Source: Enoplolaimus lenunculus
Taxonomy: Eukaryota
Assembly (NCBI GenBank): GCA_030248215.1
Contig: JASANG010001402.1
Span: 372,001 to 436,000, forward strand
Reading direction: 5' to 3'
DNA length: 64,000 nt
Every line of letters begins with the position of its first letter. Within the stretch, counting starts at the first letter, position 1. The notes beneath the pieces were generated by a model that saw only the letters and a program-made list of their open reading frames with translations, did not search any database and was not told where the DNA came from. Made by a program: the position numbers and the translations under genes. Of the stretch, positions 25,801 through 62,941 are shown one piece after another.

Positions 25801-28800
25801 AACAGCCGATTAAATCGAAGTACCTAAAAATAAAAAAATAATTAAATATTTTAAAATCGGCAAATTGGCTATAAATCTTAAAGTTCCGAAAAACTAAGCC
25901 GATCAATTTTTCTTTTTCCTGTGCCTTTTGTATGTCTTTATGATCATTTTATTTTACATACTTACTCTTACTTTTATACAGTAACAGCTTTTGCTTACAG
26001 TCATACATTCCAATTTACCTTTCCTTTCTTGAATTCCGGAAAGAAACATCTAACATCCATATCTCGATACTGGTCTGGAAGTATGTTTGCCAGCGGATTA
26101 TGACTTTCGGTATCACATTTTTTACCCGATGCGCCATACCCGGTTGAATCTTGTGCTCCGCTATATGGCGGATAACTGCTATCTCGCATCTGAAACATAA
26201 AGCTAAGAAATATGTCAACCCCTAGGCATTTCCTCGGTTGTGGCAAAATAGCACCTACCATTAAACTATTTATTGTTTGTGGGTCTCGCTACTGGGTATG
26301 GTTGTTTTTGACAATGTGCTTTGTTGTAAGAACACCTAAACACTCTCACTGGCTAGTGGATCTGACGCTTAATTAAAAATTCTGCAACCCTCATACTCCG
26401 AAAGCTCCTCCCGGTTGCGAACCGGGGGCCAACCGGCTGATATCCCACTCCACCGTGACCCAGGGAATGCCCAGTATTTCTGAGCTAAATTACGTAGACC
26501 GTGAGTGATTAAACGATTAGTTGCGAATTTTACTTGCAAAATTATGCAATAGGCCACAGTAATTAAGTACACCAGGACGAAATAAGTAACACCAAAACCA
26601 TAACTAGTACAAGTTGTTAAGCAGAGTATTATAAAGTTAAGCGTAAGTTGCTAGGCAAAGAATTATGAAGTTATTGAGCGAACCTTAGAGTTTCGCGAAG
26701 CGTTTTATATTTTGTGCTGGGGGTCGAAAGTTGGATGTCCGCCCGTCCGTCCGTCCGTCTTTCCGAAAAGTATCTTAGGAACCTCAGAACCGATTTGGAT
26801 AAACTTTTTGTGTTTGAATGCCTGGCATCCTGGGGTGGTAACCGCGCACTGGTGTTTTATAATGTTACGCTGTTTATTAGCTACACGCTAATTTGCATAA
26901 TTGGTTTAAGCCTAAATTGTTTGCAAACCTCCAAAACCGATAAATGAATAGTTATCTAGTAACTAATTTGCATATTAGCATAATTGATAAGCCTAAATTA
27001 GGACTTTTTGTAATATGCACTACGTACTAAAGTTACTGACGGGTTTTTGGGTGCGCGAAATCTGAATAAATTGTTTACAAACCTCCAAAACCGATAATAA
27101 ATTGTTAGCTAATAAGTAGTTTGTATTTGCATATTAGCTTAATTTGCTAAGTGTGTTCGAGCTTTGCTCAATACATGTAGTCCCACTACTACTGGTTATA
27201 ATGCTAATTCATTCACTCATGTAATTAACATCCGGCACCGGCATATTTTCCCGTGCTCTGCTTCGCATTTTCTAGCATTTGGTCTCACTCACCGTAGCCT
27301 ATACCCAAACTAAAACAAACAAAACACATCTACCCTACATCCACCAACATACCGCTCCTTGCAAATCTGACTTATTGCTCGCGTTTTCACTATAATACTC
27401 AGCTTCAGCTTGACGGATCTCGTCCAACAAATACACGATATCCTCGCCATGATAATCACTACTTGTTGTATTGTCACTCGGACCATTCCCATTCTCATCA
27501 ATCATTTCTGTGTCCACCTGTAGGGCTGCACCTAACATCTCTTGTTCAAGTTCGTTGAGGTCGATGCTCGATTCCGACCCAGCGGAAGTTGAGTCTTCCG
27601 GATCAGACCCTAATGACGAGCCGTGATCACTAGTCCAAGCACCACTACGACGCACTGGAGCGATCACCGCTGGAGGTGGCGAGTTAAAATTGGCTCCTAA
27701 AACAAAACCCGAATTGACGCATGAGCGGCATAACAAATATTTTTAAACATTGCGACCGCCCCACTCACCAACTATAACTCCCCTGTTGCACGGTCCATCG
27801 ATTGAAACGGTTTAGCATCAACTATTTAGCCCACGTATAGAAGAGGGTCGGATCGTTTTCCGGAGGGGCTATAATAGAGTCCGTTTAAGCTTTAGACTAA
27901 TCTTTTTGCTTAGGCTGATGCTTAGGCTTAGGAATACCATACGCTTAGGCTTAGGCGTAGGAATATGCTTATACTACTGTTCCGGCCCTGTTCTATACAT
28001 GGTCCAACTAGTTTGTCTTTGATACATGGGGCGTTTTTGCGTCCGACCCGATCAACTTTTCCCACAGTATGGCAATGTATATATCGCATTCAGAACACAC
28101 CTATCCTCCTAGCAACCAACTAGTTCCAAACTGGATCTTAAATTCCATGAGATCCATCTAAATAGAAATAGGTGCTACACATACTTAAAAATTAATACCA
28201 ACCCGTTTGAAAAACTCGCTTACCTCGATGTTCATCAGTTTCATCATCATCAAGTATCGTTTGTGTAATATCAAACATTTCGTTACTGTTTGAATTTTCT
28301 GTAAATAAATAAATAAATAAATAATGGTTGAGACTTGAGACAAACATTACGAACAGAAACATATAATTCTTCTACTCCTACCAATAATACAACGTAAATA
28401 TTAACACTGTAGAAAAAGTTTCTCAGCTGTTACAGTGTTAATTCCTGGACAACACTCAGATAACAAAATGACAAACTCAGCTACGTAACCAGAAATTTGA
28501 GAGACAAGTTTCAATTGTTGCTTACGATATCGGCCTTCAAACACTATTGCGGCGATTATCCTCTTGACCTGGTCGGGTATTTAGAAACATTTTAATACAG
28601 ATTTCGCATACCAACCGACGTAATCAAACTATGCCGCAATACCCTTGAATATTATAACTCACATCTGCTGAACAATATATATTAACAAGACTTTCGGAAT
28701 AACATCAAAGTTACTCTGAGATTTCACCTCAAGTTTGATAGCCATCACAACTACAGTCGACACCGCCAGGGTGGCAACAAAAGGTTCGGATCGGATTCGG

Positions 28801-35060: not shown

Positions 35061-35520
35061 GTGAGACCTGAATGTATACACCTCTGAACTAAGCGCTATT
35101 AGCTCACATGTACACAAAACGTAGCCAAATTGAAATAAATCGCGATATTCTTATTAAATTTATGATTCCGTCAAGTTGCATAATGTTTGTACACTTCATT
35201 ATAACAAACACTAGCCATGTATCTTTTCGAGATCAATTTACTTTGCTGGCAAAGATTTTAAACCGGAATCTACTGGATTCAAAATACATTTGCTTGTTTT
35301 AAACTATTTAACGGAAATTGCTCGTCTTGTCTTGAAACACACGAACACGACATTTTAGTGCGGAGAACAGACTTTGAGGTCTCTATTATTAAGTCACCAG
35401 TCCCCCTGTCTTCCAGCTATTCATATGCTCTTATTCTTGACATGAGACTCGTGTTTATTAGATCAGTGTTCAGTTGAATGGCTGAAATCGGTTTGATAAA
35501 TGTTGTTGCTAGTATCAGTG

Positions 35521-35684
35521 TGTTCTGAAGAAGGAAAACAGGATTGAGGTATTTCTGGTTATTGCAAAACAGTGGCTATTTTGCATATTCAAAACCTCAG
35601 AAAAGTACTATAATTTTAATACAGTCAGTGTAAAAAGGTGAAAGTGTGTGATACGGTTTCTAATAAATACAATTTTTGCGTACA
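35521..35684 (+). repeat. 5' LTR (164 bp)
   Basis: Identical to the 3' LTR except one A/G substitution and one T indel; contains AATAAA near its 3' end. Confidence 0.97.
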
Positions 35685-35694
35685 TGGTCCTTCG
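35685..35694 (+). promoter_or_regulatory. Primer binding site complementary to the tRNA-Tyr 3' end
   Basis: TGGTCCTTCG immediately after the 5' LTR; complementary to the ...CGAAGGACCA end of eukaryotic tRNA-Tyr. Confidence 0.85.
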
Positions 35695-36150
35695 TCGTTG
35701 TTTATTTGAACCAGGGTTTAGTGTCGTGTTTGCGAAATCCGGTTAGCTATTGCACGTGTGGTGTTTAGTTAGCCTGAGCGCAGTGTGCTCGTGTTTTCGA
35801 ATCATCATTAGAACGTGGTGCTCGAATAAAATTATTTTATGAATGGAGCGTGTGTGAATGTTAACGTCTGGTGGATTTTTTTACACTGTTATTTACTTCG
35901 GGTTGCTTTGATCATTCTGCGTTTCATTGTGCTTTTTCAATACAACAAGGTGAGTGTGCCGTGTAGTTAAAAAATTTGTTTATGTCCGGACGTCACAGAT
36001 TAAAGTCCGACAAACACTGCTATTTATCTAAGTAAAGTTTGTATATTCTGTCGTGTCTGTTTCACGTGAAACTACACGCATGGATACGGCAGGTGATATA
36101 CCGGGGAAAAGACCTTAGAAACCCCTGCCCCATCAGTGAATGTAGCCAAA

Positions 36151-39100
36151 ATGGGGCGAAAGGTAGTTCGAACGGCTTCAACTAATTTGGTGAAAAAAGT
36201 TGTGGCAAGCTATAAGGATGTGACACAAGAAAATGTGCTTGACCTAAAAGTAGCTATTTCAAAACTCGACGGATACAGGGCGGAACTTAATATGTTAGAC
36301 ACCATCATTTTTGAAAGTGTCACCGAAGACACGCAATTAGAAGCTGAGGTTCAAAAGGCATTAGATTATCAGGATATGTTGTCAGATCATGGCAAACGAG
36401 TTCGTCTGCAAATTGAAATGCTCGATGCAAAAAGTGCTACACCCCAGACATTAACGCGGGAACCAGAGGTATCAGGAAACATCCGGGTGAAAACTCCTAA
36501 ACTTCAGTTAACTGAGTTCGCAGGAGACCCTCTTCGTTGGGATTAATTCTGGGATGATTTTTCGTGTAGTGTTGATAACAGGACAGATTTGTCTATCATT
36601 GACAAATTCAAAATTTTAAAACAATCGTTAAAAGGGGAAGCTCTGAGCGTTGCGGACGGGTATTTTTTAACCCAAAGAAACTACCAGGAAGTTAAGGATG
36701 CTTTGAAAGATCGCTTTGGGGACTCTCAGGTTGCAATTTTTGCTCACTTTGAGGCGTTACTGGATTTACCCGCTGCCTCTCATGACGTCGATCAACTGAT
36801 AAAAATTAGAGACAAGTGTGAAGCTCATATTCGGAGCATTACAGCCCTTGGTTTATCGGAAGATACGTTTGGCCAGGTTTTTGCACCAATTCTTCTGTCC
36901 AAATTTCCTCGATTCGTAAAAATGGAGTTGCATAGACGCAACGGTTCGAGGAAATGGACTTTATCAGCCCTGAGGGAGCACCTCAGGGATGAAATTAGTG
37001 TTCGGACCAAAAGTGATCGGTGTTTTGGAGCAAATAATTTGACCTCTACTCATGATAATAGTTCTTTTAAAGCAAAGTCGGAGCGTAAAAAGAAAGATAA
37101 CCCCAGAACCGGATCAGCGTTGCTTGTTCAAACAAAAAAACCAAAGACAAAGAATTCAAATCAGATTCGAGCTCTTCTAAAACTCGAACATGCGTGTTTT
37201 GTGGCGAAAGTCATGCAAACTGGGAATGCACGAGATATGCAACTGCACAGGAGCGAATAAAACATATTAAGGACAGGTGTTTCAACTGTTTGAGCAAAGG
37301 CCATCAAAAGGCAGATTGCAAGAGCACCAGGTTGTGTTACTATTGCTCCCGTGCGGACCATAACAGCAGCTTGTGCTACAAGCAGTTCGGGAAACCAGAC
37401 ACCAAGGCAGATCACGCTAATTTAGTGTGCACGGGCTTGCTGAATCCTAGTGCCCCAGTGTTCGTTCCTACAACTGGAGTTGAGTCGAATGATCAGTCTG
37501 CGCTAGCACAGTGTTCATCTATGCGTAAAGGGGTTGCGATATTAGAATCTGCAGTAGCAACAGTCATAGGAATGGCAAAAAGTGCTAAAGGACGCTTAGT
37601 TTTCGATACAGGCAGTACGTTGTCTTTTATACGTGCAACGTTTGCGGAACGTATTGGCGCGACACCCATTGGCATTTCGGTGACGTCGTTGAGCCGCTTT
37701 GGGGAAACCAAAGCGATGCGTACTAATCATTCTGAAGTTTCGGTTGAATTGCAACAAAGAGATGGTTCATCGATTGAGCTTTGCCTGAAGGTAGTTAAAA
37801 ATGTTTCGATGCCTATTCAGTTGACACCGTTAGATTTGTCCGGAACATCTATCCCGTTATCGCCGAAAGATTTTGCAGAGATTTTAGTGGATAGGCAACA
37901 ATCCGCGGAAGTCGATATTTTGATTGGTCTTGATCATTACTATGACATAGCGACAATGCAGCAATGGAGATGTGACGGTGGCCTAGTAATTAAGGACACA
38001 ACTATTGGGAAAATCGTAACCGGGTTTTCTAATTCAGTTGTAAAGCCCAATTCGCTCGTACCACATCATCAGATGTTGGTTTTAGAGGATGCCGAGCAGG
38101 CACGAAAATTCAATCTTGACCAAATTTGGAGCTTGGAAAATATTGGAATCGTCGAACATCCAGGTTCGCGGGATGATGATCTCGCCCTTGAGCATTTTAG
38201 TCGAACTGTTCGGTTTCGTGACAACCGTTACGAAGTGCAGTGGCCTTTTAAATCGGAGCATCCGGAAATTGCAAATAACTACCAGTTGTCGTTACGCCGG
38301 TTGAAATCAGTTCACAAGAGGCTGATAGCTGACTCGGAATTGCTGCATAAGTATGATGAAATTTTTAGCCAACAGCTAGAAAGTGGAGTTATTGAACCAG
38401 CTCCTGAAATTGCGCAAGGCGTTGTTTCGTACATGCCGCATCATGCGGTCGTTACTTTGCAGAAAGAAACTACGAAGGTTCGGATTGTTTTTGATGCCTC
38501 GGCAAAAGAAAACGGTGATCAACAGAGTTTAAATGAGGCAATGTATCGTGGTCCGGTATTTCTGAATGACCTGGTCGGAATGTTGTTGCGATCTAGGCTG
38601 TTTCCAATCTTATTGTCAAGCGATGTGGAGAAAGCTTTCTTGCAAATCGCTGTGCAATATCACCACAGGGATTGTACTCGGTTTTTATTGCTCAAGGATC
38701 CCCTCATCGAGCCAAAACCTAGCAATTTGATAGTGTATCGTTACGCTAGGGTGCCGTTTGGAATCAAAGCAAGTCCGTTTCTTTTAGCTGCAACAATAAT
38801 ATACCATTTAAATCATCAAAGCAGTCAAATTTCAACCGAAATTAGAACAAACATCTACATGGACAACATATTAACCGGGCGATTTGCTCCTAAAGCCGCT
38901 TTAAAGCTCTTCCACGACGCCAAGGAATTATTTAGTTTAATATCTACCGTCTGTTCTGGGAATAAAGTGGGACATATCTAAGGATTGTTTCCATTGTTAT
39001 GCTGTGAAGAAACCATCAAGTGATATCGTCTGCAAACGCACCGTTTTGAGCGGTGTGGCCGCGTTATTTGATCCTTGTGGGTGGTTCAGCGGAGTTCTTG

Positions 39101-41520
39101 TGCGTGGTAAAATGCTACTCCAAAAAATTTGGAAACTTAAAGTAGGTTGGGATGACAAGCTTCCCGACAGTCTTTGTGCTGAATGGAGCCGCATTGCTAG
39201 TGACATCAATAACATAGCGAGCTTTGCTTTACCACGAAACATTTCTCCATGGAACGCGTTCAAATCAGATTCGGTAAGTCTCGAGTGTTTTTGTGATGCG
39301 TCACAAGATGCATACGCGGCATGTGTGTACCTTCGCACAACGAAGGGTAACGTGGTGCATTCAGGTCTTTATTTTGCTAAGTCACGAGTTAGTCCTGTTA
39401 AACCAATCACAATTCCGAAGCTGGAACTTTTAGCTGTGCTACTAGGAGTTCGAATACTGAAATTTGTAACAAAGCAGCTTTGTCCGAAATTGGTGAACAA
39501 CTTGCACATTTGGACCGATTCTAAATGTGTTCTCAGTTTAATTGCTAGTGAAAAAGTGCAGCCAAGATTTGTTCAAAATCGACTACAGGCGATCAGAGAC
39601 GCAAGTCTAAAGTATCACTATCTACCTACTTCTGAAAATCCAGCAGATATTCCAACAAGGGGAATTTCTTTTGACAAACTGCGCGATTGCGAACTTTGAT
39701 GGCAAGGCCCGGTTTGCATGAAATCGAATTCGTTGTACAATGACCGGCTTAGGTCGTCAGTTGTATCAATTTGCGATACGCCAATCAGCCAACATTCTTC
39801 CATTGAAATGACAATGAGGGTATCGATTCATAAGTATCAACCTCGGTCTGACGAAATGTTTGATCTTTGTAGATACGCGAGTACGGGAAAGCTTTATAGA
39901 ATGACATGTTTTCTACTCCGATTCATAAAACGATGTCGGAAAGAGTTAATTAACCGGGGACCACTTTCAGCAATTGAGATAAATCAAGCGCGGTTGTTTT
40001 GGATTCAACGAATTCAGAGACAATTTTTCGGCCCGCTTCTGGGATTTAAGCCACCTACGGAATGGAAACAAATACAACGCCAACTTGGAGTTTTTAAGGA
40101 TAGTGATGGTGTTCTTAGATGTCGAGGCCGATATCAGCAGGCCGATAATCTGAACTATGCTGCTAAAGAACCAATATTGCTACCGTACCGTGGCGAATTC
40201 ACTGATTTAGTTATTCAACAAGCTCATTCTATAGTGCTTCATGCAGGCATAAAGAGGACTTTAGCCGAGTTAAGGGCCACATACTGGATAATTTGTGGGA
40301 GGTCTGCCGTAAAACGTGTGATATCGAGGTGTGTTACATGCCGACGTCACGTCGCCAATTCGTACAGGGTTCCCGAAGCCCCACCGCTTCCGGATTTTCG
40401 AGCAAATATTAAGCGACCGTTTTCGTACGTTGGTATGGACTACTTGGGGCCGCTTTTCGTAAAACCTGTTTCAGACCAACGGGAGACAAAGAAAGTTTGG
40501 ATCGCATTATTTACGTGTGCGATTGTGCGAGCCGTCCATTTAGAGGTTGTAGAGAGCTTATCTGCTGCTGATTTTTTGCTGGCTCCGCGAAAATTTATGT
40601 CGCTGCAAGGGAAACCCGATATGATTATATGTGATAACGCTAAGCAATTTAAGGCAGCCGAACGTACCCTCCGACGGATTTTTGATGACATGCTGCAGGA
40701 ACCCGACATTCAAGATTATTCCAGTATGAAGGGCGTTTCATGGAAGTTCATTGTTGAGAAGGCACCTTGGATGGGGGGCTTCTACGAAAGATTGGTCGCT
40801 TCTGTCAAAGATGCTTTAAGGAAGAGTTTAGGCACGTGGACTGTAACATTAGCAGAACTGCAAACGTTGGCATACGAAATCTCCTTTATGATAAATGGCC
40901 GCCCTTTGTTGTACCAAGAAGACGATCCGGGCGATAAACTGCTGACGCCCTTGCACTTTCTGTTTCGCTCTACCGATATGTTTCCATGTGGACAGCAGTC
41001 TACTGAGTATCCGGTAGAGTCGGCTAGCGCCAATACTCTTATAGCTCATTGGAAAGCAGGTCAGTGCCTGTTAGCACAGGTTTGGAACACCTGGTTGAAA
41101 TGTTACTTGTTATCGTTGCGTGAACATTGGAATCAACGAGCGCTTAAAATCAGAGGAGAAGGCGACATGTCGGCAAAGATAGGTGATATCGTTCTAATCG
41201 GAGATAATATGCCGCGAGGGTCTTGGAAAATCGGTCGTGTATCCAAATTAAGAGTTTCCAGCGACTCAAAGGTTCGTTCAGTCGAAGTAAGATTGCCAAA
41301 TGGGAATACTATTGTGCGACCGGTGAGGCTATTGTATCCAATCGAGGTTAGCGTATCAAACGGAATAGGTGACAAACGGTGTAGCGGAATGGCGAACGAG
41401 GCTAGAGAGGAGCTTCTTTCTAGTCCCGAGCTTCTTCCTAGTCCCCCTAATTGTGTTCGCCAAACTCGAACGGCTGCAGTAGTAGCCAGAGAGCGCATTA
41501 ATCGCCAAGTAAGCAATTAG
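36151..41520 (+). pseudogene. Disrupted BEL/Pao gag-pol polyprotein
   Basis: Gag F.GDPLRWD*FWDDF; CVFCGESHANWEC, CFNCLSKGHQKADC, CYYCSRADHNSSLC; protease FDTGS; RT YMPHHAV, VRIVFDAS, DVEKAFLQI, VPFG, YMDN; RNase H FDPCGW, FCDAS, PKLEL, WTDS, NPAD; integrase HHCC, DYLGP, DNAKQF, APWMGGFYERLV. Lesions: TAA at 36544, frameshift at about 37134-37190, deletion plus frameshift at about 38945, TGA at 39697. Confidence 0.95.
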
Positions 41521-41834
41521 TAGCAATACTTCAATTTGTTCAATAGGTACTTGCAGAATAGTGCTGCTATACCTGGCATATTTAATTACTTTGTGTGTGC
41601 AAAATAATATTGCTAACATTGATGCGCATGTTTGCTGAGTTTAAATTTAAGTATAAACTTTGGGGTTGCGATTAATATGGTGAATGTGATGCATCTGCAG
41701 GTGTGCTGCTATGCAATCACAATTAGTACAAAAATCTTAGTTTAAATATCGTTTGTTATGTGGCACTAAGCTTTAAAGTGAGATGCACCTGCAGAATTGT
41801 GCTGCTATGCATCTATATTTACATTTTAGTGAAA

Positions 41835-42152
41835 ATGAGTGCAATCGAAGTGGTGCCAAATCACCCGCTTTCGCTTAATCATTGCTTCGCTGAAGGTCTG
41901 GCATTGGGCAACGTCCGAGGTATCAAATCTTTGCGTCAAGCGTATTTCTATATCTTGCTTTTACATCACGATAAACCGAAAGAAGCCCAACAGCTATTGG
42001 TTGATGAGGTAATGCATGGAATCCAGAGAGAATCGCCCAGTACGTGCAAAAAGTTGTTCCCGAGCCAAATGTCAATTTTTTATGTCACAGCGGGATATTT
42101 ACAAGTCAATTATGGCGCATCAATTGCAAATACCGGGAAATCCGTTTTGTGA
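41835..42152 (+). CDS. Small accessory ORF (105 aa) of the retrotransposon, or the frameshifted N-terminus of the SGNH ORF
   Basis: ATG at 41835 lies 5 nt after acceptor-like TTTACATTTTAG (41829); overlaps ORF 42016 in a different frame. No recognisable domain. Confidence 0.45.
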   Translation: MSAIEVVPNHPLSLNHCFAEGLALGNVRGIKSLRQAYFYILLLHHDKPKEAQQLLVDEVMHGIQRESPSTCKKLFPSQMSIFYVTAGYLQVNYGASIANTGKSVL

Positions 42153-43188
42153 AGTTTTTGAATCTGTTTTACTGCAGATTGAAGATCTGCAAAGTGTTGA
42201 ATTTCGTGTTTATACAGCAAAACACGACCTCGTATTTACATCTGGACTCAAATTTGGCGAATGGAAAACTCCGGTGCCAGGATTTGATGTCCATGGTATA
42301 AATCTGAAACAGCTCGCGCAAAGTCTAGCAAAAAGCAATGAGGTAGAAAACCCCATGTTTCAAGATATCATCACAAATTTTAAATTTTTCCATCCTGTTG
42401 TTAAAAAATCCGTACTTATTATTGGGGACAGCCAACCGCGTTTTTTCAAAAGCATTACATCTGGGGATGTCGTTCCAGTAAGTGGTGGAAAATACGGGGA
42501 TATGTTGCGTGTAATAAATTCTGGTCGCTTCCAACTATCAGACTACAAATGGATCCTAGTGTATTGTGGTACCAACTGCGCTATTAAGTTGACATATTCA
42601 GCTGCACAGCGAAGTCATGAATGGCGTTTGTTGCGTCAGGCGCTAATGACGGAAGCGTTAGCGCGCGATAAACCGACAGTGGTGTTCTGCTGCTCATTTG
42701 ATCACCCGAGTAATCCGCATAATGCCGCTCAGTGTTCTTTTGTGGAGCAACAGCTACAAGGCACTCCAGTTGTATGCATCAGTTGGAGGGACATTTCAAA
42801 CCCTTTTTTATTGCCTAATGGTCGCATAAATCTGGATTTTTTTCAAGTACGGCAAAAACGGGGTGTTATGGCGCGCGAAAAAGAAATTCATTTGAACCAC
42901 AACGGATTACGTATTCTTTGGGAAACATGGTGTCGCTATCTGCCCGATTTGAAATTTATCTCGTATTCGCTGTCGCCTGAACCACATAGTGTTATGAAAT
43001 CGGTATTCCAGCCGACAGAGTCAAATCCAAGTGAACCAGTGCGGGAAACTTCTGGAGCGGTTGGCAGTTGTACAACAGTGCGAAGTGTTGTGGTGCCATG
43101 TTCAAGCACAAACGAAGACTTTCGGGTATTTAATGAAGGGCACAGAAACCGTCCCTATAAACGTGGTTGGGACAGTCAGCAAAAATAA
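42016..43188 (+). CDS. SGNH/GDSL hydrolase-like (esterase/OSK-like) accessory protein inside the LTR element
   Basis: Intact 390-aa ORF between integrase and PPT. Block I VLIIGDS (42424-42432), block II VSGG, block III ILVYCGTN (42568-42576), block V EKEIHLNxxG (His at 42889), in the correct order and spacing. Confidence 0.8.
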   Translation: MESRENRPVRAKSCSRAKCQFFMSQRDIYKSIMAHQLQIPGNPFCEVFESVLLQIEDLQSVEFRVYTAKHDLVFTSGLKFGEWKTPVPGFDVHGINLKQLAQSLAKSNEVENPMFQDIITNFKFFHPVVKKSVLIIGDSQPRFFKSITSGDVVPVSGGKYGDMLRVINSGRFQLSDYKWILVYCGTNCAIKLTYSAAQRSHEWRLLRQALMTEALARDKPTVVFCCSFDHPSNPHNAAQCSFVEQQLQGTPVVCISWRDISNPFLLPNGRINLDFFQVRQKRGVMAREKEIHLNHNGLRILWETWCRYLPDLKFISYSLSPEPHSVMKSVFQPTESNPSEPVRETSGAVGSCTTVRSVVVPCSSTNEDFRVFNEGHRNRPYKRGWDSQQK

Positions 43189-43254
43189 TACAACGGGAGT
43201 TAACTTTATGCCAATGCGTAATTGCTAAGATTTATGGGTGTGGAGTCACGTTTT

Positions 43255-43263
43255 GAGGGGGAA
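43255..43263 (+). promoter_or_regulatory. Polypurine tract
   Basis: GAGGGGGAA directly before the 3' LTR. Confidence 0.85.
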
Positions 43264-43426
43264 TGTTCTGAAGAAGGAAAACAGGATTGAGGTATTTCTG
43301 GTTATTGCAAAGCAGTGGCTATTTTGCATATTCAAAACCTCAGAAAAGTACTATAATTTTAATACAGTCAGTGTAAAAAGGTGAAAGTGTGTGATACGGT
43401 TTCTAATAAATACAATTTTGCGTACA
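43264..43426 (+). repeat. 3' LTR (163 bp)
   Basis: Direct repeat of 35521-35684, followed by TSD CAGTG. Confidence 0.97.
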
Positions 43427-44329
43427 CAGTGCATGATCACTCTTTAGCATTCGTGCGCAATTTTGCCGAAATTTGCGTCGTACAAAATGTGTGACCGAGC
43501 AGGGTGTAAAATGATATGCTTTTTCGTTTCCGTTTCCGGCAAAAAACAGTATCCGTTTCCGTTCCTGTTATAGAAATACCGGAAATTCATTTATTTTTAC
43601 GTTCAAAATTAGTTATAAGTTTTACGAATAAATTTCTCGCATTTTTTCATTACAGATGTGCTGCAATTGTCCGCACTGAAACAAAAAATACGATGAGAAA
43701 AATACCGGATTTTATTACCGGAACTGGATTGTGAATATATCGGACTTTCTCAACGGAACCGGGTTTCCGGTTGCACCCTGATTTTATGAATTTATGTATG
43801 TATGATTATGATGTATAAAAAGCCACTTATTTACCGAAAAATTCATTTTTAACGCTATTTAATTGAAATCCTATGTGTTAAACACACTATACTGTCAAGA
43901 AACAAATGTAGTAGCAGGGAAACGTTTATGGAGTATGACAAGCTTTAAAAATTATAGTAAAACGCGCTCAGACAATGTTAAAAAATAAATTGCGCCAACC
44001 TGCTATTTTACGTAACAGCAGTTTGGCCTGGGTCAAAACTACGTTTCACCTCAAAGACCAATCATATATGATTATAGACACACAATACCGTTTAGCCAAT
44101 CAAAGTTGGTGTTTATACATCACATTTGTTTTGCGGCATCTCACAATCGATATTTGGCTTATGCCAAACTGCTATTTGCTTCTAAAGCGATTTGGCATAT
44201 GCCAATTGGTATTAATTGGCCTGCCGAAAAGGAGTCTACTCTAGTAAAGTTATATGTAAAAGTCGGCTTGTTAAAGTTTGTGGCCCACGTTACGCTTTTA
44301 GCACAACAAACAGGCTGCTTTATTGTGTT

Positions 44330-44530
44330 TCAGGCTAGGCTTAGGCTATCCTTAGGACTTCGGGTAAGGCTTAATAGGCTTAGCCTTAGTCATAATAGGC
44401 TAAGGGTTTAGGCTAAGCTTAGGCTATGGCTTAGGATTAGGCGAGGGTTTAGGCTTCCGCTTAGGCTAAGGCTTAGGCTTCAGCTATGGCTTACACTTTA
44501 GGCTAGGGCTTAAGCCAACGCTTAGGCTCT
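44330..44530 (+). repeat. Degenerate interstitial TTAGGC array
   Basis: About 200 bp of TTAGGC/TTAGGG/TAAGGC variants. Confidence 0.8.
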
Positions 44531-46288: not shown

Positions 46289-48389
46289 CAGCGCCGAATT
46301 AAAAAGGGGGCGGGGGGGCCGGGCCCCGGGCCTCCCATCAAAAGGGGCCATCCACCAACCGAAAACCGACGATATGTTTCAATTGTTAACAAGACAACAA
46401 AAATTTTTGCGCGAACCACGAAGTTATGCAAGCTTTGAAACATTTCATTGGTGAGCCCTCTCGGACATGCTCGGAGCGGCCAACTACTCTTATTCTAACG
46501 GCGTTTGTACCACTACGGCAGTTTTGTGGAGTACTGATTGCGTTCTTCAGTAGGGTTATATACAGCGGTGTACAAAATACCTTTCCAAATGTTGAGAAAG
46601 GTCTCGAGATTTATCTTATTTTCTGGTTTCTGCAAGGTCAGGACTAGTCAGATAAGCCTACGCCACCAGTGGCGGATCCAGGATGTCAAAATGGGGGGCC
46701 AAAATTTCACAGGTAATAAACTTACTTTTGACCCGCACACAAACCACGAATTATTGTCATAAAATTGCTATATAATTTTTGTCGAGATGCTGTTGGGGGG
46801 GCCACGGCCGGGGTGGCCCCCATGGATCCGCCATTGTACGCCACCTATAATTTGCGATTTCATACTTATGGTAGTACGATCAAAAGTTGTGTAGTCAGAT
46901 TAGCTCTATTCAGGACAGGAACTTTGCATTCCGACCTTAGAGCGCCCGTGCAATGGCAATCCTTATCCGTCATCATTGGACTATTTTAGACTAAATTTAA
47001 AAAATCATCAAGAATATTTATATTGACCCGGAGAGCAACAGTAAATATATAGACACATGTTCCTACTTTTTGTCAATGGCCCTTTCGGAGCACCAAATGT
47101 CCTCGCATATTCTTGCTCCTGGATAAAACTTCTGACCACCGAAGTAGGGTGAACACTCATACCAGGAAACAAAGGTTCGGATTCGGATTCAGCAAAAAGT
47201 TGCGGTTCATATTCGGATCCGGTTTCGGTTCTGAAAAACCGAATCAAAAAGCCGAATCCAGCAGTGTTTTGCAGTATGTTTTTCATTCGGATCCGGTTTC
47301 GGTTCTGAAAAACCGAATCAAAAAGCCGAATCCAGCAGTGTTTTGCAGTATGTTTTTCATTTTTTAAACAATAAAATTCAAGTAAATTGTTATAGAAATC
47401 AATTTTTTTGCATGTGGCATATCTCAGAACTGAGGTCGAGTTCGAAATATGTATATATTTACGAACGTTTAAAGTTATCCTGCTGGCATTGCGGTGATAT
47501 TCTGAAACAAACTATAGATATAAGTGAAATTCGCAACATGCAAGATTTGGTTTGAGATTCTGCAAATTAGCAATGGATTCGGATTCGGTTTCGGATTCGG
47601 TTGAATCGTGGATTCGGTGCCACCTCAGGTGTGTTGAAAGAAACTTTTGGAAAATATAGTGGTCGAAAAAGCAAGAATATGAAAGAAAACGAGACCCGCA
47701 TCGTCCATTTTCGGACGTCAGAAAATTTCTAGACTGGTGGAATTGTAAGTGACTTCTCTAAGGGCAAATCTAGAACAGTCTCTTGGCCGTAAATTTTGTT
47801 TCGTACTTTTGCTACAATTTCTTTTACTAAAATGTATCACTTTAAGCTTTGCACACAAAACACATTTTCGATATTTGAAGAAATATTTTCTTAAATTCAA
47901 GACAGTTATGTCTTAATTTAGACTCCAGATATATATTTCTTGAATGCAAGACATTACTTTCTGAAATTTTTCAGAAATATGTGTCTTAAATTCTTAAAAC
48001 TTAAATGTGTTAAATTTAAGAGTCTCTTTCATAAACGATTAAGACAATATTTCTGAAATATAAGACAAATGTGACTGAAATAAAAGACATGTTTTACATC
48101 AAGATTTGTCAGGGGAGTTGCGTTCTAAGTTGGGAGCTAAGCTCAACCAAATTCCTCAATTTTACAACCTAAGATACGTCCAAGACGTAAACTTAGGTTT
48201 GTGGGGAACCTGAGCTCAACCCGAAATATCTCTGAAATTCGATTATTTATATACTCTTTCAAGAATATAAATTGAGGAACTTTTTTTACATACATAAAAA
48301 TCAGAGGACCCCGGGCTCCTAGTCATAAGGACGCCCTGACCTCCTGGTCATATGGGCCCCGGGCCTCCTACCACCTTAATCCGGCCCTG
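46289..48389. mobile_element. 2.1-kb hAT-like non-autonomous element with nested MITEs
   Basis: TIR CAGCGCCGAATTAA...TTAATCCGGCCCTG; subterminal GGGCCCCGGGCCTCC at both ends; 8-bp flanks AATATCCA/AATATTCA. Confidence 0.65.
46667..46836. mobile_element. 170-bp hAT MITE
   Basis: TIR CAGTGGCGGATCC...GGATCCGCCATTG; perfect 8-bp TSD TACGCCAC; copies at about 18660 and 62765. Confidence 0.9.
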
Positions 48390-52648: not shown

Positions 52649-53173
52649 AGAATTGTGGTGGAGCCATTATTTTACAGTGGGGAATCGAGAATATTGTTTG
52701 TGTTTTGGAATTTGACAGTTTAAATACAGATTTTAGCAAGTTTTTTGATATTTGAACAATATTTCGGCTTCTGCTATCGCCATATTTTTCTTTTATTTTG
52801 TTATCAAAACATATTGTGAGCATCAGATGAACCATTTACATGGCAAAATTTCAGCACTGCAAAGCGGATGACAAAGGTTACATTGCCACACCACTGGATT
52901 CGCTAATGGCTTTTTTGGCCTTTGTAAAGATGGGGTGGAATGCTTTTCTGCGCGACTGCAATAGAGTAAGCTTAAACTTTAGACCATTTTTTGCTTATGC
53001 TTAGAGGCTTAGGGGTAGGCTTGAGCATAACCTCTTTCTAGGCTTATGCTTTACGCTTAGGCTAAGAAATAGCTTATACCACTGTTACAGCCGTGTTCTA
53101 TTCATTGACCGTATGTTCAATCTAATTATCAATTGTACAACAAACAACAGGTTTTTATTAAAGTCGTATTCTA

Positions 53174-53822
53174 CAAAGGCGGATCCAAGGGGGATGGCAG
53201 GATGCATCGCCCCACCGGCTGCCGAGTGTATTTTTTTCAAGGTTAAAATAAAACTTACTATGCAAATTTTTGTTCCGGTATCTCAAGATTTCACAGTTGT
53301 TTAGGGCTTCGCCCCGAAACTCAGCACAAATAATTTTCTATGTGCTTTGACCAATTTTAAAACGAGTTTAGCTTATTGCTCGCTCTTCTGGCGAGTTCCG
53401 GACTCCCACTCAGGAGTTTGGGAGGGCCCACACAAGTGTGTGGGAATAAAAGTGCCAATTTGGCTAAAATAGGGCTGCCCCCCTGCACCCGTCTACCTAT
53501 GAACCCTTAGCCTATGCGCAAACCTAAGCTTACACCTAAACTTTGGCCTAAAACGTATACTAAAGCTTGAACCTAAACCTGACTCTAATCCTAAACTTCT
53601 GAATAGCCTAACCTTTTAGAAATTGAGATATTATCCGGGAAATTTTGTGAATTTGAGAAATTACTCAGAAAATTGGGATGGACCTGTTCTATACACAATA
53701 CAGTGTGCCTGTGACTTGGTTGTTTTTATTTGCATAAAAATATGTATGACCTTGTGCCAAAGCTTAACATTTTTCCACTTGTGCGACTCCCCCCCCACAA
53801 ACACCTTCTGGACCAGCCACTG
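53174..53822. mobile_element. About 650-bp hAT-type MITE (inverted sister of 56619-57755)
   Basis: Ends CAAAGGCGGATCC...GGACCAGCCACTG; collinear in reverse complement with 56619-57005 plus 57453-57755. Confidence 0.65.
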
Positions 53823-54296
53823 ATAAACTGCTATGTACTACCAGTCTTAAAACCCGGCCCTTCTTGCAATTAATTGCTAATGATTTGATCAAATTGCAAT
53901 TAATTAATTAATTAATTGCCATTTGATCAAATCATTAGCGGCCGCTCCTTTATAAAGGTGCAATGATTTGTACCTACATTCGTTCGCTATTACTGACTGC
54001 AGAAAGCTTGCACTACAACGGCATTTGCGTCGCTAAGTTGTTTAGCCGATCGCTTCAAAATTTTGTAATCTTTTACTGTAGCTCACTCCTTTCGTTTTAA
54101 GTGTAAGCTTCAATGCTGTCACAACTTGGATACAGCAATTAGACTACATAACAGTTTCTAGTGTCTATAGTCATTTTGAGGTATAAAGATATGTTATGTA
54201 TACGCCTATTGTGGATTCGTGCTCCTTATTTAACGTTGATATATGACTTTCAAGCCTTAATATTGTTTTTTGCATTAATTTTTTGATTCGTTACAG

Positions 54297-54552
54297 GGCC
54301 AATATAAGGAACAGGGGCGGAACAGTATTATTAGCAATACTCCGAAGCCTAAGCCTAAGCCTAAGCCTAAGCCTAAGCCTAAGCCTAAGCGTAAGAATGA
54401 GCATATTCCTAAGCCTAAGCCTAAGCCTAAGCGTAAGAATGTGCATATTCCTAAGCCTAATTCTAAGCCAAGCAAAAAATTAGGCTAAAGCTTAAGCTTA
54501 CTCTATTGCAGTCCTACAGAAAAGCGTTTCGCCCCTGATCTTTACATAGGCC
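54297..54552. mobile_element. Merlin-like TTAGGC MITE
   Basis: GGCC ends; perfect (GCCTAA)n tracts; 8-bp flanks CGTTACAG/ATTTACAG. Further copies at about 55004-55197, 55259-55445, 56245-56372 and 58700-59052. Confidence 0.75.
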
Positions 54553-56618
54553 ATTTACAGTAGATACTAGTCAGCCAACTTTGCGCTATGCGCAAAAGTG
54601 TTTAACAAATGCCAAAAATTTGCATGCAAATCCTTTAAATTATACAACAGTTAATACGTTTATGTGCTATGAAACTATTGTAAACAAAGTATGCTAGAAA
54701 CTTGCCCAAAATATGTATATGGGGCGTTCCAGGTTTAATCATGTAGATTTTTTAAGTTTATATTTGGATTTAACGATTTCTCAATTGGTACACGACAAGC
54801 AATTCCAAGGATCAGCGGAGGTATCGTTTCTATTGCTTCGGCAAACACTTTTTGCTTTCACACACGGCAAAAAATGGTGAGTCAAATTAACTCTCTATGA
54901 AATAGGCTCTACAGTATTATCTAAACTGAGTCGAATTTGACTCTGAAATTTTAGCCTGTAGCTTTTCAGTTACTTATGTTTTTTACCTACAATCGAATGT
55001 ATGGGCCCATACAGAGATCAGATGCGGAACGTTTTCTGTGGGACTAGAAAAGAGTGAGCTTAGGTTTTAGAGTAATTTTTTGCTTGGCTTAGGCTTAGGC
55101 TTAGGCTTATTAATAAACTCATTCTTACGCTTAGACTTAGGCTTACGCTTAGGAATATGCTTATAATACTGTTCCGCCACAGTTCTTTAAATTGGCCAAA
55201 TTATGTATGGGAGTGCATTTTCTTGCGATTGGAAAAAGTAAAAAAAGTACAATCGTTGACGGAACAGTAATATAAGCATATTCCTAAGCCAAAGCATAAG
55301 CCTAAAGCCTAAGCGTATTAAGAATGAGTCGATTGCTAAACCTAAAGCGTAAGCCTAATCAAAGCAAAAAATTCCTCTAAAGCCTTTAGCTTACTCTATT
55401 GCAGTGCCACAGAAAAACATTCCGCCCCTGCTCTTTACATGGGCCAACCTTTCTAAGCAGAATTGGTGCTAAATGTTTCGCTAATTTGATAGTGTAATGT
55501 TAAAAGTTGTTCAATGAATTTGCTTAAAATGTGTTTTAAAATTAAAAATAACATGATATTATCCATGATGAACTCAACGCTAGCGGGCATAATTTTGAAC
55601 TATCAAATTGTTTTTGCTTTCAGTTGCATAAAGCTGTTTACAGTCGTCCTACGCGTTAAAAATTGCACTTATTTCGTTTGTAAACTTTATGTCTTGCCTT
55701 CAAGCCATAAACTATAACAACAACTCCCGCATAATTTTGAGTTTAAATTTGAAAACAGTCACTCACACAATCGAATATCTCCGTCGAGCGATCGGGTTTC
55801 AAATAATTTCAACAGCATTTTGAGCCAAAACCACACAAAACTTTTCCTCGCGTGTTTCCGTACGATTAAAGATCAGTAAGCCAGTCTCACCTAGCTAACT
55901 ATATATGTCTGTCAAGCGTATTTAATTATTACACGAATGTCAATATAAAATTGAGGCATTGAGTTGTCTGCGGTCACACAAAATTTGTATATGCTTGAAA
56001 TTTAATACTGACAGAGTTTCTTTGCTCAACGGTTGCATCCGGGTGCCCCTGGCACGTGGCGTTTCCGGGCCTATCAAATATCGTGTGGTAGAGTATAGTG
56101 ACTTTGCAAATTTCAAATATTCTAGTCGAAGTAGCAAGAATAAAGTATATTTCAATATGCATCTTCATATATTATTTGATGTAAGAAATTGTCTTTTACA
56201 AATCTGAGCTAATATAAAGATCAATGGCGGAATGATTTCCTGTGAGAGTAAGCTTAAGCTTTTGACTATTTTTTCGTTAAGCTGAGGTATAAGCTCATTC
56301 TTACGCTTTACGCTTAGGCTAAGGCTTGAGGATATGCTTACACTATTGTTACGGCCCTGTTCTATATATTTGCCGGTATTGTTTTTAGTTATATTTAAGC
56401 AGAAAATCGAAGCTAGGATGGGTCAACCCATCTACGTCGCTATGTTTATTAAGCTTATTTGTTATAGTTTCTGAAATCTTTTACCAACATAGGAAATAAA
56501 TCTACAAGAGACCATTGAAGTTACGCTCCGGTTCCGGAAACTAATTCGATTCATTTCGACAAATATCTCGTCCAGTTTCTAATCGGTGTTCAGAAGGAAA
56601 ATCTGATTTTTCTTACGG

Positions 56619-57755
56619 CAGTGGCGGATCCAGAAATTTCTGGTGTGGGGAAGTACAAGTGGAAAATGTTAAGTTTTCGCACATGTTCATACATATTTTT
56701 GCGCATATAAAAACATCCACGAGCCACACACGCACAGACACACACACTGGCCCATGTATGGAACAGGTCAATCCCAATTTCCTGGGTAATATCCCAATTT
56801 CCCAATATCCTAATTTCCTGGGTAATATCCCAATTTCCCAATATCCTAATTTCCCGGGTAATATTCTAATTTTCCATAAGCTTAGGCTATTCAGAAGTTT
56901 AGGGTTAGACTCGAGTTTAGGCTTAAGCTTGAGCCTAGGCGTTAGGCAATCGTTTATGTGTAGAATTTAGGTTCGCGCATAGACTGGAGGGTCCATCGGC
57001 AGACAGGCCCATGTTACTGTAACGGGCGTCCAGGTTTCTGGTGGATCTATAAAAGAGTGTGTTTAGATTCTAGATTACATTTTTTGCATAGGCTAAGGCT
57101 TGGGCTTAGGTTCAGGCTTAGGAATCTATTTTTGCAACGTTTACACACAAAAAATATATCTGAATTTAATCAGAAAAGTATTTTCTGTGGCAAATCTGAC
57201 AAGTTTTTCTGAGATTTAAAACAATTTTTCAAAAAGTAGCTGGACAACGTTTATTTTCAGACTTTATTCCAAAACTTTCAGAAATCTTTTCTGTTATAAG
57301 GAAATACTTTTCAAGTGCACCTTGCTAATTATATTTCTTAAATGTAAGAAATTTTTTCTTATATATCAGAAATATTATATTGAGTATAGGCTTAGGCTTA
57401 CGTTTAGGAATACGCTTAATCTACAGTTACGCCCCTTAAAGTAACACTGGCCGGCAGACGGATTCAGGGGGCAGTCCCTCTGCAGCCAAATCGGCACTTT
57501 TTATTCCTCCACGCTTGACCGCTCCCCCAAACTCGCGAGCGAAGCGAACGAGAAGTTAGACGCATTTTAAAACTTGTCAAAGCACATGGAAAAATAGTTA
57601 CGCTGAGATTCGGGGCAAAGGCCCTAAACATCTGTGAAATAACGAGATATCGGGACAAAAATTTGCATTGTAAGTTTGATTTGAACCCTGAAAAAATTAC
57701 ACTCGGTAGCCGGTGGGGGGGCTGCATCCCCGCATCCCTCCTTGATCCGCCCTTG
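56619..57755. mobile_element. hAT MITE with two levels of nested insertions
   Basis: Perfect TSD TCTTACGG. Contains a GG-ended MITE at 57006-57452 (flanks GGCAGACA/GGCAGACG), which in turn contains an element at about 57142-57385 (inverted copy at about 59890-60141). Confidence 0.85.
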
Positions 57756-57773
57756 TCTTACGGCCGAACATAC

Positions 57774-58354
57774 CTCTTCTACATGTGCAAGAAGGATAAG
57801 TTTTCTTTTTTCAAAAGCATTCTCGTATGTTTCCTTTCTTCAATTTCCTGCCCATAAATTTAAGCTTGTACCATTTGAAATTGTTACAGCTTGGCAAATA
57901 ACGTAAACAGCTGTCGAATGCTGCTAATCTCTTGTGTTCAACCCCAAAAAATTATAAATCTGTCAGATTCGATGACGAATTCATCAAAAATTTCTACTCA
58001 ATGATCATAACCGAAAATGCCATATTTATCATTCGTATATAAAAATATATACATATACATGTATATTTACATATAATATATAAATATATATACATATATA
58101 TGATGTATTATATATATGATGTATTATATATATACATATATATATATATACATGTATATGTGTATTATATATCAGAGTGCTGACAGATCTGAAATGAGCG
58201 ATATTTCTTTGCAATAATTGCAACTTGCACAACGTTAAGATGATTTGAACACAAAATCATTATTAATAAGCTGAGAGTGAGTATGCTTAAAGTTGCAATG
58301 AGTGCAACCACAACAACAACTTTTACGAGAAAACAACGCGAGGTAAAAACGCAT
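57774..58354 (-). pseudogene. Possible decayed exon: hydrophobic anchor plus Cys-rich segment
   Basis: Pieces MRFYLALFSRK / VVVVVALIATLSILTLSLLIMILC / AFDSCLRYLPSC...MGRKLKKGNIRECF*KKKTYPSCTCRR ending at donor GAG|GTATGT; interrupted by frameshifts, stops and a (TA)n tract. Confidence 0.3.
58035..58172. repeat. Imperfect (TA)n microsatellite
   Basis: TATA/TACA-rich run. Confidence 0.9.
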
Positions 58355-60243: not shown

Positions 60244-60499
60244 GACCAGTGTAAGGAACAGGAGCGGAAAAGTATTATAAGCGTATTCCCAAGCCTAAAG
60301 CCTAAGCCTAAGCGTAGGAATAAGCATATTTCTAAGCCTAAGCCTAAGCCTAACCTAAGCCTAAGCGTAAGAATGATCATATTCCTAAGTTTGCGAATAA
60401 GCCTAATCCTTAGCCAGGCAACAGAATTAGTCTAATCTTTAAGCTTACTGTATTCTAGTCGCACAGAAAAACGTTCCGCCCCTGATCTTTACATGTACC
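60244..60499. mobile_element. Merlin-like TTAGGC MITE
   Basis: Same body as 54297-54552; perfect 8-bp TSD GACTTTTT (60236-60243 and 60500-60507). Confidence 0.8.
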
Positions 60500-61494
60500 G
60501 ACTTTTTATATATATCAGCGCCGCCTCTAGAGTATCCGAGACCAGACCTGCGAGCATGGGACCCCATCCTAAGACATTTTGTCACCTTTTGAAAAATGAA
60601 AATTTAAAAATTGATGTTTCAACACCTGGTCCCTCACAGTAGCCGAAAATTTTGGTTTATGGTTAACCATGGGCACATTTGAACTCTTGCGTAGGAAGTA
60701 AAATTCGCGAGCCAAGCGAGCGAAAATCCGCAGACGCTTTCTGAACAAAGCTTGTTTTTGGATCAAATGGAGGTTTTCGAAATTGATTTGGTTCGAGGTC
60801 GTGCCTATGGCTGCTCTGACCTCGTCCGAAAAACAAATCACGGGACCATTGGATGGATTAGGTAAACATAGGTTAAATTTGCGCGAACGAGAGTGCCAGA
60901 CGCTTGTTTTGGCATTCAAACTGACTTAACTTTTGCTTTACTTGATGAGGAGTTTTTGTAAACTTGATCTTGTCGCCCAGCGACTGGATTGGTCGATCCC
61001 ATGCTGTCCTGTGCAAAATTATGTTTGATCAAAGCGAGCAAAATGCTATATGTACGCAAAATGTTTAGATAATCAAGAGTCAAAAATAGTGGAATCCCTA
61101 ATAAAACTTGCGGGTGTAAAGTCCGACGCGAAATTCGTACTCAATTATGAAGAAAAATTTCATTTCATTGGGGTCTGGTAGGGGGGATCGATTCTAGAAT
61201 CGCCCCCAAGATCCGTCCTTGCGGCGGCCTATGTTGCTTTAGCAGGTCTACCGCTAGTTTTTGACTAATTTTTCGGCTTAGACTTTCTCTTACGTTTAGG
61301 CCAATGCTTAGTTATAGGCTTATCTTTACTCTGAGTCAGAGGAGCCCGTATCCATTCCCCATGCGCCCTCCAGCTTCTGGGGCACCTCATGATATGAGCT
61401 TGAAATTGTTATTTGATTGTACTGTTGTGACCGAATAAGAAGGAATAAAGGGGGTGCCTTCTGGAGAGGCCAAATAAATATTAGCCTCCCTCTT

Positions 61495-62764: not shown

Positions 62765-62941
62765 CAGTGGCGGATCCAGGATCTCAAAATGGGAGGGGCC
62801 AAAATTTCACAGGTAATAAACTTATTTTTGACCCATACACAAACCACGAACTATTGTCACAAAATTGCTATAGAATTTTTGTCGAGATGCTGTTGGGGGG
62901 GAGGCCCACGACCGGGGTGGCTCCCCATGGATCCGCCATTG
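62765..62941. mobile_element. hAT MITE (same family as 46667)
   Basis: TIR CAGTGGCGGATCC; perfect 8-bp TSD GCCATATC. Confidence 0.9.

What the first reader, a model, noticed from the sequence alone, without database searches (positions are those of the whole stretch)
42016..43188. BEL/Pao LTR retrotransposon carrying an SGNH-hydrolase-like gene in the env position
Seen: an uninterrupted 390-aa ORF between integrase and PPT, inside TSD-bounded LTRs, with GDS / G / GTN / HLN blocks and no obvious signal peptide or transmembrane segment. Known: extra 3' ORFs in BEL/Pao elements are typically viral-type fusion glycoproteins (roo, Tas, some Cer elements). SGNH esterase domains are known from ORF1 of non-LTR elements (CR1/L2), where lipid or membrane interaction has been proposed, and as the RNA-binding OSK domain of Oskar. 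Inference: this may be an LTR lineage that captured an esterase-fold accessory factor for membrane targeting, RNP assembly or host-defence evasion instead of an envelope. I do not know of a described example but cannot exclude one.
Basis: partly seen in the sequence, partly recalled or inferred. Interest (0 to 1): 0.88.

Follow-up and report, generated by a model that had tools for sequence, protein, structure and literature searches.

The report
Retrotransposon carrying fused NADAR–esterase gene
A broken copy of a jumping gene, likely from a nematode, carries where an envelope gene would sit an extra gene predicted to join two enzyme folds, an ADP-ribose-handling (NADAR) fold that has likely lost its cutting residue and a likely active esterase; each fold was already known in other jumping genes, but their fusion was not found in the papers searched.

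Summary
The element is real: a 7.9-kb BEL/Pao LTR retrotransposon (35521-43426) with near-identical LTRs, a 5-bp target-site duplication and an empty site in another sample. The SGNH fold is confirmed. The missed N-terminal ~170 residues have a NADAR/YbiA fold (Z 13.9 on an intact homolog; profile match 92.7%). Forty-six homologs, mostly 23-47% identical, keep the SGNH Ser/Gly/Asn/His, while the NADAR catalytic glutamate is gone. Two of the 46 are fused to BEL/Pao pol; the context of the other 44 could not be fetched. A splice donor in the leader, an acceptor before the start codon and C-terminal basic clusters point to a spliced, nuclear accessory protein rather than an envelope substitute. 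SGNH third ORFs (rotifer Vesta) and NADAR domains (Ectocarpus Gypsy, oyster Tx1) are each published in retroelements; the fusion, and its place in BEL/Pao, were not found. New variant of a known kind; function inferred only.

The parts
35516..35520 (+). left target-site duplication CAGTG
   Evidence: empty-site joint
35521..35684 (+). 5' LTR, 164 bp, TG..CA
35685..35702 (+). primer-binding-site position, begins TGG right after the LTR; tRNA match not tested
35948..35955 (+). predicted splice donor AG/GTGAGT in the leader, the only AGGTRAGT on the + strand of the window
   Evidence: use inferred, no RNA data
36151..37520 (+). gag region (DUF1759, zinc knuckle), broken by a stop and a frame change
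37521..41520 (+). pol: protease, RT (YMDN motif), Peptidase_A17/RNase H, integrase with DUF5641; broken near 38946 and 39699
41549..41811 (+). three short copies of a TGCAG..TGCTGCTAT motif in the non-coding spacer; role unknown
41824..41829 (+). predicted splice acceptor TTTTAG, 5 nt before the ORF3 start codon
   Evidence: inferred
41835..42345 (+). ORF3 N-terminal NADAR/YbiA-fold domain (about 170 aa), broken near 42014 and 42091; catalytic glutamates not kept
   Evidence: fold shown on intact homolog P0007
42400..42960 (+). ORF3 SGNH hydrolase domain; Ser (GDS), Gly, Asn (GTN), His (HLN) kept; Lys at the DxxH acid position, Glu one residue later
42961..43188 (+). ORF3 variable C-terminal tail, basic near the end, and stop codon
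43253..43263 (+). polypurine tract
43264..43426 (+). 3' LTR, 163 bp
43427..43431 (+). right target-site duplication CAGTG

Best explanation
This is a broken copy of a BEL/Pao retrotransposon whose third gene, in the env position, encodes a predicted two-domain NADAR-fold plus SGNH-esterase protein that is likely made from a spliced RNA and likely works in the nucleus as an accessory factor, the probably non-catalytic NADAR pocket binding a nucleotide- or ADP-ribose-bearing target and the likely active esterase cutting an ester on or near it. Shown here: element anatomy, gene extent and breaks, the homolog family and its residue conservation. Predicted: both folds (about 0.9). Inferred: spliced expression (about 0.7), nuclear location (about 0.6), an active esterase (about 0.7), a non-catalytic NADAR (about 0.7). 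The substrate is a guess.
For: Folds: the model of intact homolog P0007 (pLDDT 92.6, pTM 0.89) matches NADAR 8BAU at Z 13.9, rmsd 2.7, 156 aligned over residues 1-170 and YbiA 2B3W at Z 12.2, and SGNH 7E16 at Z 14.4 over 190-369; 8 of the top 50 viral-structure matches are named NADAR. Profile of the N-terminal region against 13 NADARs: probability 92.7%, E 4e-7; SGNH region as control 0.7%; best of 40 column shuffles 0.84%. The window's own frame-1 part folds as SGNH. In 37 aligned rows (36 of the 46 homologs plus the window): SGNH Ser 36, Gly 35, Asn 34, His 34. YbiA E125, invariant in 13 of 13 reference NADARs, has no acidic residue in its column or the one before; E48 is Glu in 14 of the 28 rows that reach it (Arg in the window); D130 stays Asp/Glu in 34 of 37. 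Loss of the equivalent glutamate abolishes NADAR activity (PMC12945103, passages). Splicing: unique donor in the leader, acceptor 5 nt before the ATG, and 8 of 10 homologs with N-terminal read-through have FQ/LQ/FR (compatible with TTTCAG/TTCAG) within 3 residues of the conserved Met against 3.7% by chance. Nuclear: NLS-like basic cluster in the last 25 residues of 17 of 34 rows against 3.4% of core windows. Precedents: CERV, the spliced nuclear env-position protein of Cer1 (PMC10309623, passages); SNA-3, a nuclear nematode NADAR protein (PMC9303266, passages).
Against: No activity, binding, location or transcript was observed. The window's own tail does not meet the basic-cluster pattern, and 17 of 34 rows lack it. 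The acceptor patterns and start methionines were chosen after seeing the sequences; TTTTAG occurs 7 times in the element and four ATGs precede the donor. The E125 column comes from a 12%-identity profile alignment, not from a structural superposition I could inspect. The DxxH acid is Asp in only 21 of 37 rows and Lys in the window, so the esterase could be weak. No Pfam NADAR hit was listed for any of the 46 homologs at E 0.05, only 13 of 46 hit Lipase_GDSL_2 and 1 passed its cut-off; the Atlas NADAR score was only 0.77 and YbiA alone did not match. The NADAR fold was tested on P0007, 29% identical to the window in that domain. Only 2 of 46 homologs have a known BEL/Pao context. The best-studied retroelement esterase binds lipids, not RNA (PMC3905857, passages).
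Confidence: 0.5

Rival explanations
1. Membrane-targeting esterase: the SGNH domain binds acidic lipids and helps particles or RNPs assemble on or cross membranes in place of an envelope, with the NADAR fold as an RNA or nucleotide tether.
For: The family profile finds the ZfL2-1 ORF1 esterase 4C1B (E 3.4e-4), which binds acidic phospholipids and liposomes (PMC3905857, passages). The window's SGNH part is basic, pI 9.4. The env position and the same proposal for rotifer Vesta (PMC5408684).
Against: NLS-like C-terminal clusters in 17 of 34 rows. No signal peptide at the conserved start; only 2 of 37 rows have a 19-residue hydropathy above 1.9. PMC5408684 itself doubts an env-like role for GDSL ORFs without coiled-coil or TM segments. 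4C1B ranks only 30th in Foldseek.
Confidence: 0.25
2. Active counter-defence hydrolase: the N-terminal domain still removes ADP-ribose from bases of the element's RNA or cDNA with a remodelled active site, and the esterase has a separate job.
For: D130 is Asp/Glu in 34 of 37 rows and the G-x-N-x-x-G motif is largely kept; 7 of 37 rows keep E48, an acid at 130 and W133 together. NADARs occur in RNA viruses, including nematode nidoviruses, and are proposed to counter host ADP-ribosylation (PMC9503650, passages).
Against: No acidic residue at the E125 column in any row; K55 not conserved; the window's subgroup has also lost E48 and W133.
Confidence: 0.12
3. The family is mostly a host or other-element gene that BEL/Pao elements captured a few times and carry without using it.
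For: Context is unknown for 44 of 46 homologs; dN/dS could not be computed; the 18 listed differences of one diverged sister contig were 5 synonymous and 13 non-synonymous.
Against: BEL/Pao linkage occurs in the window, in P0008 (same clade) and in P0022 (another clade, sister to P0044) whose pol parts are only about 40% identical to the window's. None of 30 clusters looked up had an NCBI or UniRef member or a name beyond 'hypothetical protein'. Catalytic SGNH residues persist at about 25% identity. The sister contig is itself decayed (internal deletion, many gaps).
Confidence: 0.1

Closest known systems
GDSL/SGNH ORF3 of bdelloid rotifer Vesta LTR retrotransposons (PMC5408684; parts 1-3 of 5 read)
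   Same: SGNH esterase with intact catalytic residues as third ORF after pol; no TM segment; one Adineta ORF3 even joins GDSL to a second enzyme (DEDDy nuclease).
   Different: The Vesta elements described there carry dUTPase and a GPY/F-type integrase and are not described as BEL/Pao (that they are Gypsy-like is recalled); the partner domain here is NADAR; host likely a nematode.
YbiA-family NADAR in Ectocarpus Gypsy Pol and Crassostrea gigas Tx1 LINE ORF1 (PMC12477816; passages)
   Same: NADAR domain carried by a retroelement, RNA-processing role proposed.
   Different: There it is highly conserved and inside Pol or ORF1; here it is divergent (no Pfam hit), lacks the catalytic glutamate, and is fused to SGNH in a separate third gene.
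ZfL2-1 ORF1 esterase, PDB 4C1B (PMC3905857; passages)
   Same: Retroelement-encoded SGNH fold; weak profile match.
   Different: Non-LTR ORF1 with a coiled coil; no NADAR.
CERV of C. elegans Cer1 (PMC10309623; passages)
   Same: Non-envelope ORF in the env position of a nematode LTR element, made by splicing, nuclear.
   Different: Gypsy/Ty3-related element; different domains described; shares exons with gag. Functional analogy only; no sequence comparison was run.
Nematode belpaoviruses with phlebovirus-like Env (Atlas, Cer13; PMC9094657 passages, PMC8742986 whole text)
   Same: Same family, pol order and Y-x-D-N RT motif.
   Different: No fusion glycoprotein; a soluble two-domain ORF3 instead.

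Membership tests
Belpaoviridae (BEL/Pao) | LTRs, PBS position, PPT, target-site duplication, 4-10 kb | tested here: met
   7.9 kb; LTRs 164/163 bp (slightly under the 0.2-1.2 kb of PMC8742986); TSD and empty site
Belpaoviridae (BEL/Pao) | gag then PR-RT-RH-IN with Pao-type domains | tested here: met
   DUF1759, zinc knuckle, DUF1758/protease, RVT_1, Peptidase_A17 (E 1.8e-38), integrase, DUF5641
Belpaoviridae (BEL/Pao) | RT phylogeny and PBS complementary to tRNA-Arg or tRNA-Gly | not tested
   no reference RT set or host tRNAs held; YMDN motif resembles the YVDN of nematode members (PMC9094657)
SGNH hydrolase | SGNH fold | tested here: met
   Foldseek E 2.8e-6 to PAF-AH for the window model; Z 14.4 for P0007
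SGNH hydrolase | Ser, Gly, Asn, His in blocks I, II, III, V | tested here: met
   present in the window; 36, 35, 34, 34 of 37 rows
SGNH hydrolase | acid of DxxH | tested here: inconclusive
   Asp in 21 of 37 rows; the window has Lys there and Glu at the next position
SGNH hydrolase | ester hydrolysis | not testable with these tools
   needs an assay
NADAR/YbiA superfamily | NADAR fold | tested here: met
   on homolog P0007: Z 13.9 to 8BAU, 12.2 to 2B3W; family profile 92.7%. The window's own domain is broken and was not folded whole
active NADAR hydrolase (YbiA, BC4488 or phage type) | catalytic Glu, Asp or His in the last strand plus the first Glu (YbiA E125, E48) | tested here: not met
   E125 column: no acid in 36 rows, His in 1; E48 Glu in 14 of 28, Arg in the window; mapping from a profile alignment
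OSK domain (Oskar) | SGNH fold with catalytic residues lost (recalled) | tested here: not met
   fold match Z 11.6, below active esterases; Ser and His are kept here
Env fusion glycoprotein | signal peptide, TM anchor, fusion-protein fold | tested here: not met
   hydropathy maximum 1.12; both domains match soluble enzyme folds

The most novel reading that the evidence does not exclude
The fusion is a new kind of ADP-ribose reader-eraser: the disarmed NADAR pocket holds ADP-ribose and the serine esterase cleaves an ester on it (glutamate- or aspartate-linked ADP-ribose on proteins, or O-acetyl-ADP-ribose made by sirtuins). A whole clade of nematode BEL/Pao elements would then carry a nuclear counter-defence against host ADP-ribose or sirtuin silencing in place of an envelope, which would imply an unrecognised ADP-ribose-based defence against retrotransposons.
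Probability: 0.12. Interest if true: 0.87.

Novelty: new variant of a known kind. Interest (0 to 1): 0.6.

Why it matters
It adds a third kind of env-position gene to BEL/Pao elements and shows two accessory domains, so far reported separately in retroelements, joined in one protein and kept across elements only about 25% identical. A fusion suggests that the two act on the same target, which makes the open question of why retroelements carry esterases and NADAR domains testable with one small soluble protein.

Tried and rejected
No whole genome is held, so no genome-wide copy survey. Pfam gave no hit on the 390-aa ORF or the upstream piece; single-sequence PDB search gave one chance hit; YbiA alone against the family profile was not significant. 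Word-based homolog searches found 1, 2 and 0 proteins. Scans for DNA context found nothing: viral contigs, metagenome contigs; two alignments were too divergent to give patterns. No RNA holder was listed. Rfam found no match in the element. Foldseek against the PDB listed only SGNH-type rows and did not show the NADAR domain. A VIA search of the window's own model could not be run. dN/dS: not computed; the only diverged sister contig is decayed and only 18 of its differences were listed. The careful tree did not finish; quick and FastTree trees were used. Rejected: start at 42016; sequencing error as the likely cause of the breaks (flank pieces of X1 match with 0 differences while the element differs at 31 positions); OSK-type pseudo-esterase; env glycoprotein; the hydrophobic N-terminus of P0002 as a signal peptide (it lies upstream of the conserved start).

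Full report
Element. The window holds a 7.9-kb LTR element at 35521-43426. The LTRs (164 and 163 bp, TG..CA) differ by one substitution and one indel and are flanked by CAGTG on both sides. A contig of run X3 joins 35515 to 43427 with five letters fitting either side, the empty site, while X1 has the LTR-flank junctions, so the insertion is polymorphic (the three runs are at most two samples of one study and may include the window's source). Pfam finds DUF1759, a zinc knuckle, protease, RT, Peptidase_A17, integrase and DUF5641 in BEL/Pao order. The RT motif is YMDN, close to the YVDN given for nematode belpaoviruses (PMC9094657, passages). TTAGGC arrays are abundant (27 matches of the doubled unit against 0.01 expected); that this is the nematode telomere repeat is recalled, so the host is likely a nematode.

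The gene is larger than reported and broken. The 390-aa frame exists. Its closest homolog P0002 aligns in three frames: from the ATG at 41835, then 42017-42091, then frame 1. The gene is about 450 codons and is broken near 42014 and 42091; contigs of all three runs differ from the window by an indel at both places. gag and pol are broken too. Over the element the X1 contigs differ from the window at 31 positions plus several gaps, while two X1 pieces that are mostly flank match with none, so decay of this copy is likelier than sequencing error. Contig depth over the element is about four to five times that of the left flank in X1 and X2, a hint of a few copies (the tool warns that depth is no copy number). 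A diverged, partly deleted sister is also present.

Family. HMMER over 50%-identity representatives gave 46 proteins at E 0.001 or better, 23-47% identical. Of 30 clusters looked up, 28 are singletons and 2 have two members; all come from Logan, ENA or JGI and none has a name beyond 'hypothetical protein'. Two of the 46 reveal context: P0008 has a BEL integrase end (DUF5641) in frame with a complete ORF3, and P0022 is a Pao pol fused to a truncated ORF3. Their pol parts are 39-45% identical to the window's, and P0022 falls outside the clade that holds the window and P0008 (FastTree). Scans for the DNA of the others found nothing, so 44 of 46 have no known context.

SGNH domain. The window's frame-1 part (pLDDT 89.9) matches PAF acetylhydrolase and GDSL esterases (best E 2.8e-6). 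The family profile finds the ZfL2-1 esterase 4C1B at E 3.4e-4. In 37 rows (36 of the 46 homologs plus the window; ten fragments or fusions left out) Ser is kept in 36, Gly in 35, Asn in 34 and His in 34; the DxxH acid is Asp in 21 and Lys in the window, which has Glu one residue later. Only 13 of 46 homologs hit Pfam Lipase_GDSL_2 and one passes the cut-off.

The intact homolog P0007 (pLDDT 92.6, pTM 0.89) aligns over residues 1-170 to Phytophthora NADAR 8BAU (Z 13.9, rmsd 2.7, 156 residues) and E. coli YbiA (Z 12.2), and over 190-369 to SGNH esterases (Z 14.4; OSK 11.6). Eight of the top 50 viral matches are named NADAR. A profile of the N-terminal region matches 13 reference NADARs at 92.7%, against 0.7% for the SGNH region, at most 0.84% for 40 shuffles and 1.3% for the reversed alignment. 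Against this: no Pfam NADAR hit was listed, the Atlas score was 0.77, and YbiA alone did not match. The window's domain is 29% identical to that of P0007 and 47% to that of P0002. The glutamate of the last strand (taken as YbiA E125, invariant in the 13 references) has no acidic counterpart; E48 is Glu in 14 of 28 rows and Arg in the window; D130 is acidic in 34 of 37. That position is catalytic (PMC11125620, PMC12945103, passages), so the domain is likely a binder. The mapping rests on a low-identity profile alignment.

Expression and location, inferred. The only AGGTRAGT on the + strand of the window lies in the element's leader (35948), and TTTTAG lies five bases before the ORF3 ATG. Eight of ten homologs whose predicted protein runs upstream of the conserved Met show FQ, LQ or FR just before it (chance 3.7%; pattern and Met chosen after inspection). 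Four ATGs precede the donor, one opening 37 codons that would end at a stop directly after the acceptor. Seventeen of 34 rows end in an NLS-like basic cluster against 3.4% of core windows; the window's own tail does not meet the pattern. The window's ORF has no hydrophobic segment. No RNA holder was listed.

Mechanism. I favour a spliced, nuclear accessory protein in which a disarmed NADAR pocket binds a nucleotide- or ADP-ribose-bearing target and the esterase cuts an ester on or near it (0.5 for the whole; the substrate is a guess). Rivals: membrane targeting as for ZfL2-1 (0.25), a still active NADAR (0.12), passive cargo (0.1).

Prior art. GDSL/SGNH ORF3s are described in rotifer Vesta elements (PMC5408684; parts 1-3 of 5 read), NADAR in Ectocarpus Gypsy Pol and oyster Tx1 ORF1 (PMC12477816, passages), and a spliced nuclear env-position protein in Cer1 (PMC10309623, passages). 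Also read: PMC8742986 (whole), and passages of PMC3905857, PMC9303266, PMC9503650, PMC3118150 and bioRxiv 10.64898/2026.03.22.711591 (no SGNH, NADAR or esterase in its main text). Searches for the combination: GDSL + BEL Pao + retrotransposon, 0 papers; NADAR + SGNH + transpos, 2 unrelated by listing; retrotransposon + NADAR domain + esterase, 0; Belpaoviridae + esterase, 0; YbiA + LTR retrotransposon, only the Ectocarpus paper; further listings. Unchecked notes of this scan report an SGNH gene in the LTR of another BEL/Pao element, SGNH and NADAR in Gypsy elements, and LINEs with a disarmed NADAR next to an esterase gene: leads that each part is common cargo and that the pair may recur; none was tested here.

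Verdict. Real, partly misread, and richer than reported: a new arrangement of two known retroelement cargo domains in a diverse family, function untested. New variant of a known kind; interest 0.6.

Noticed in passing
window 8268-10832 (-): 854-codon open frame with zf-CCHC_6 and the start of a bromodomain; resembles a TAF1-like host gene exon (name recalled).
   Followed up: partly
window 22499-22594, 27830-28007, 44380-44511, 53001-63993: Many interstitial TTAGGC arrays, several embedded in a dispersed repeat with conserved flanks; probably a non-autonomous DNA element family.
   Followed up: no
window 43430-44000: Very high-copy repeat right of the 3' LTR (summed contig depth in the thousands); the element inserted next to or into it.
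   Followed up: no
window 41549-41811: Three copies of a short TGCAG..TGCTGCTAT motif in the spacer between integrase and ORF3, each containing an AG that could act as an alternative acceptor.
   Followed up: partly
window 35839-35949: 37-codon upstream frame in the leader that ends exactly at the predicted donor and would meet a stop right after the acceptor.
   Followed up: partly
window 43262-43419: Several diverged LTR variants (about 80-90% identical) in the run contigs, pointing to related families or solo LTRs in the same species.
   Followed up: no
window 47211-47358: Exact tandem duplication of a 74-bp unit.
   Followed up: no
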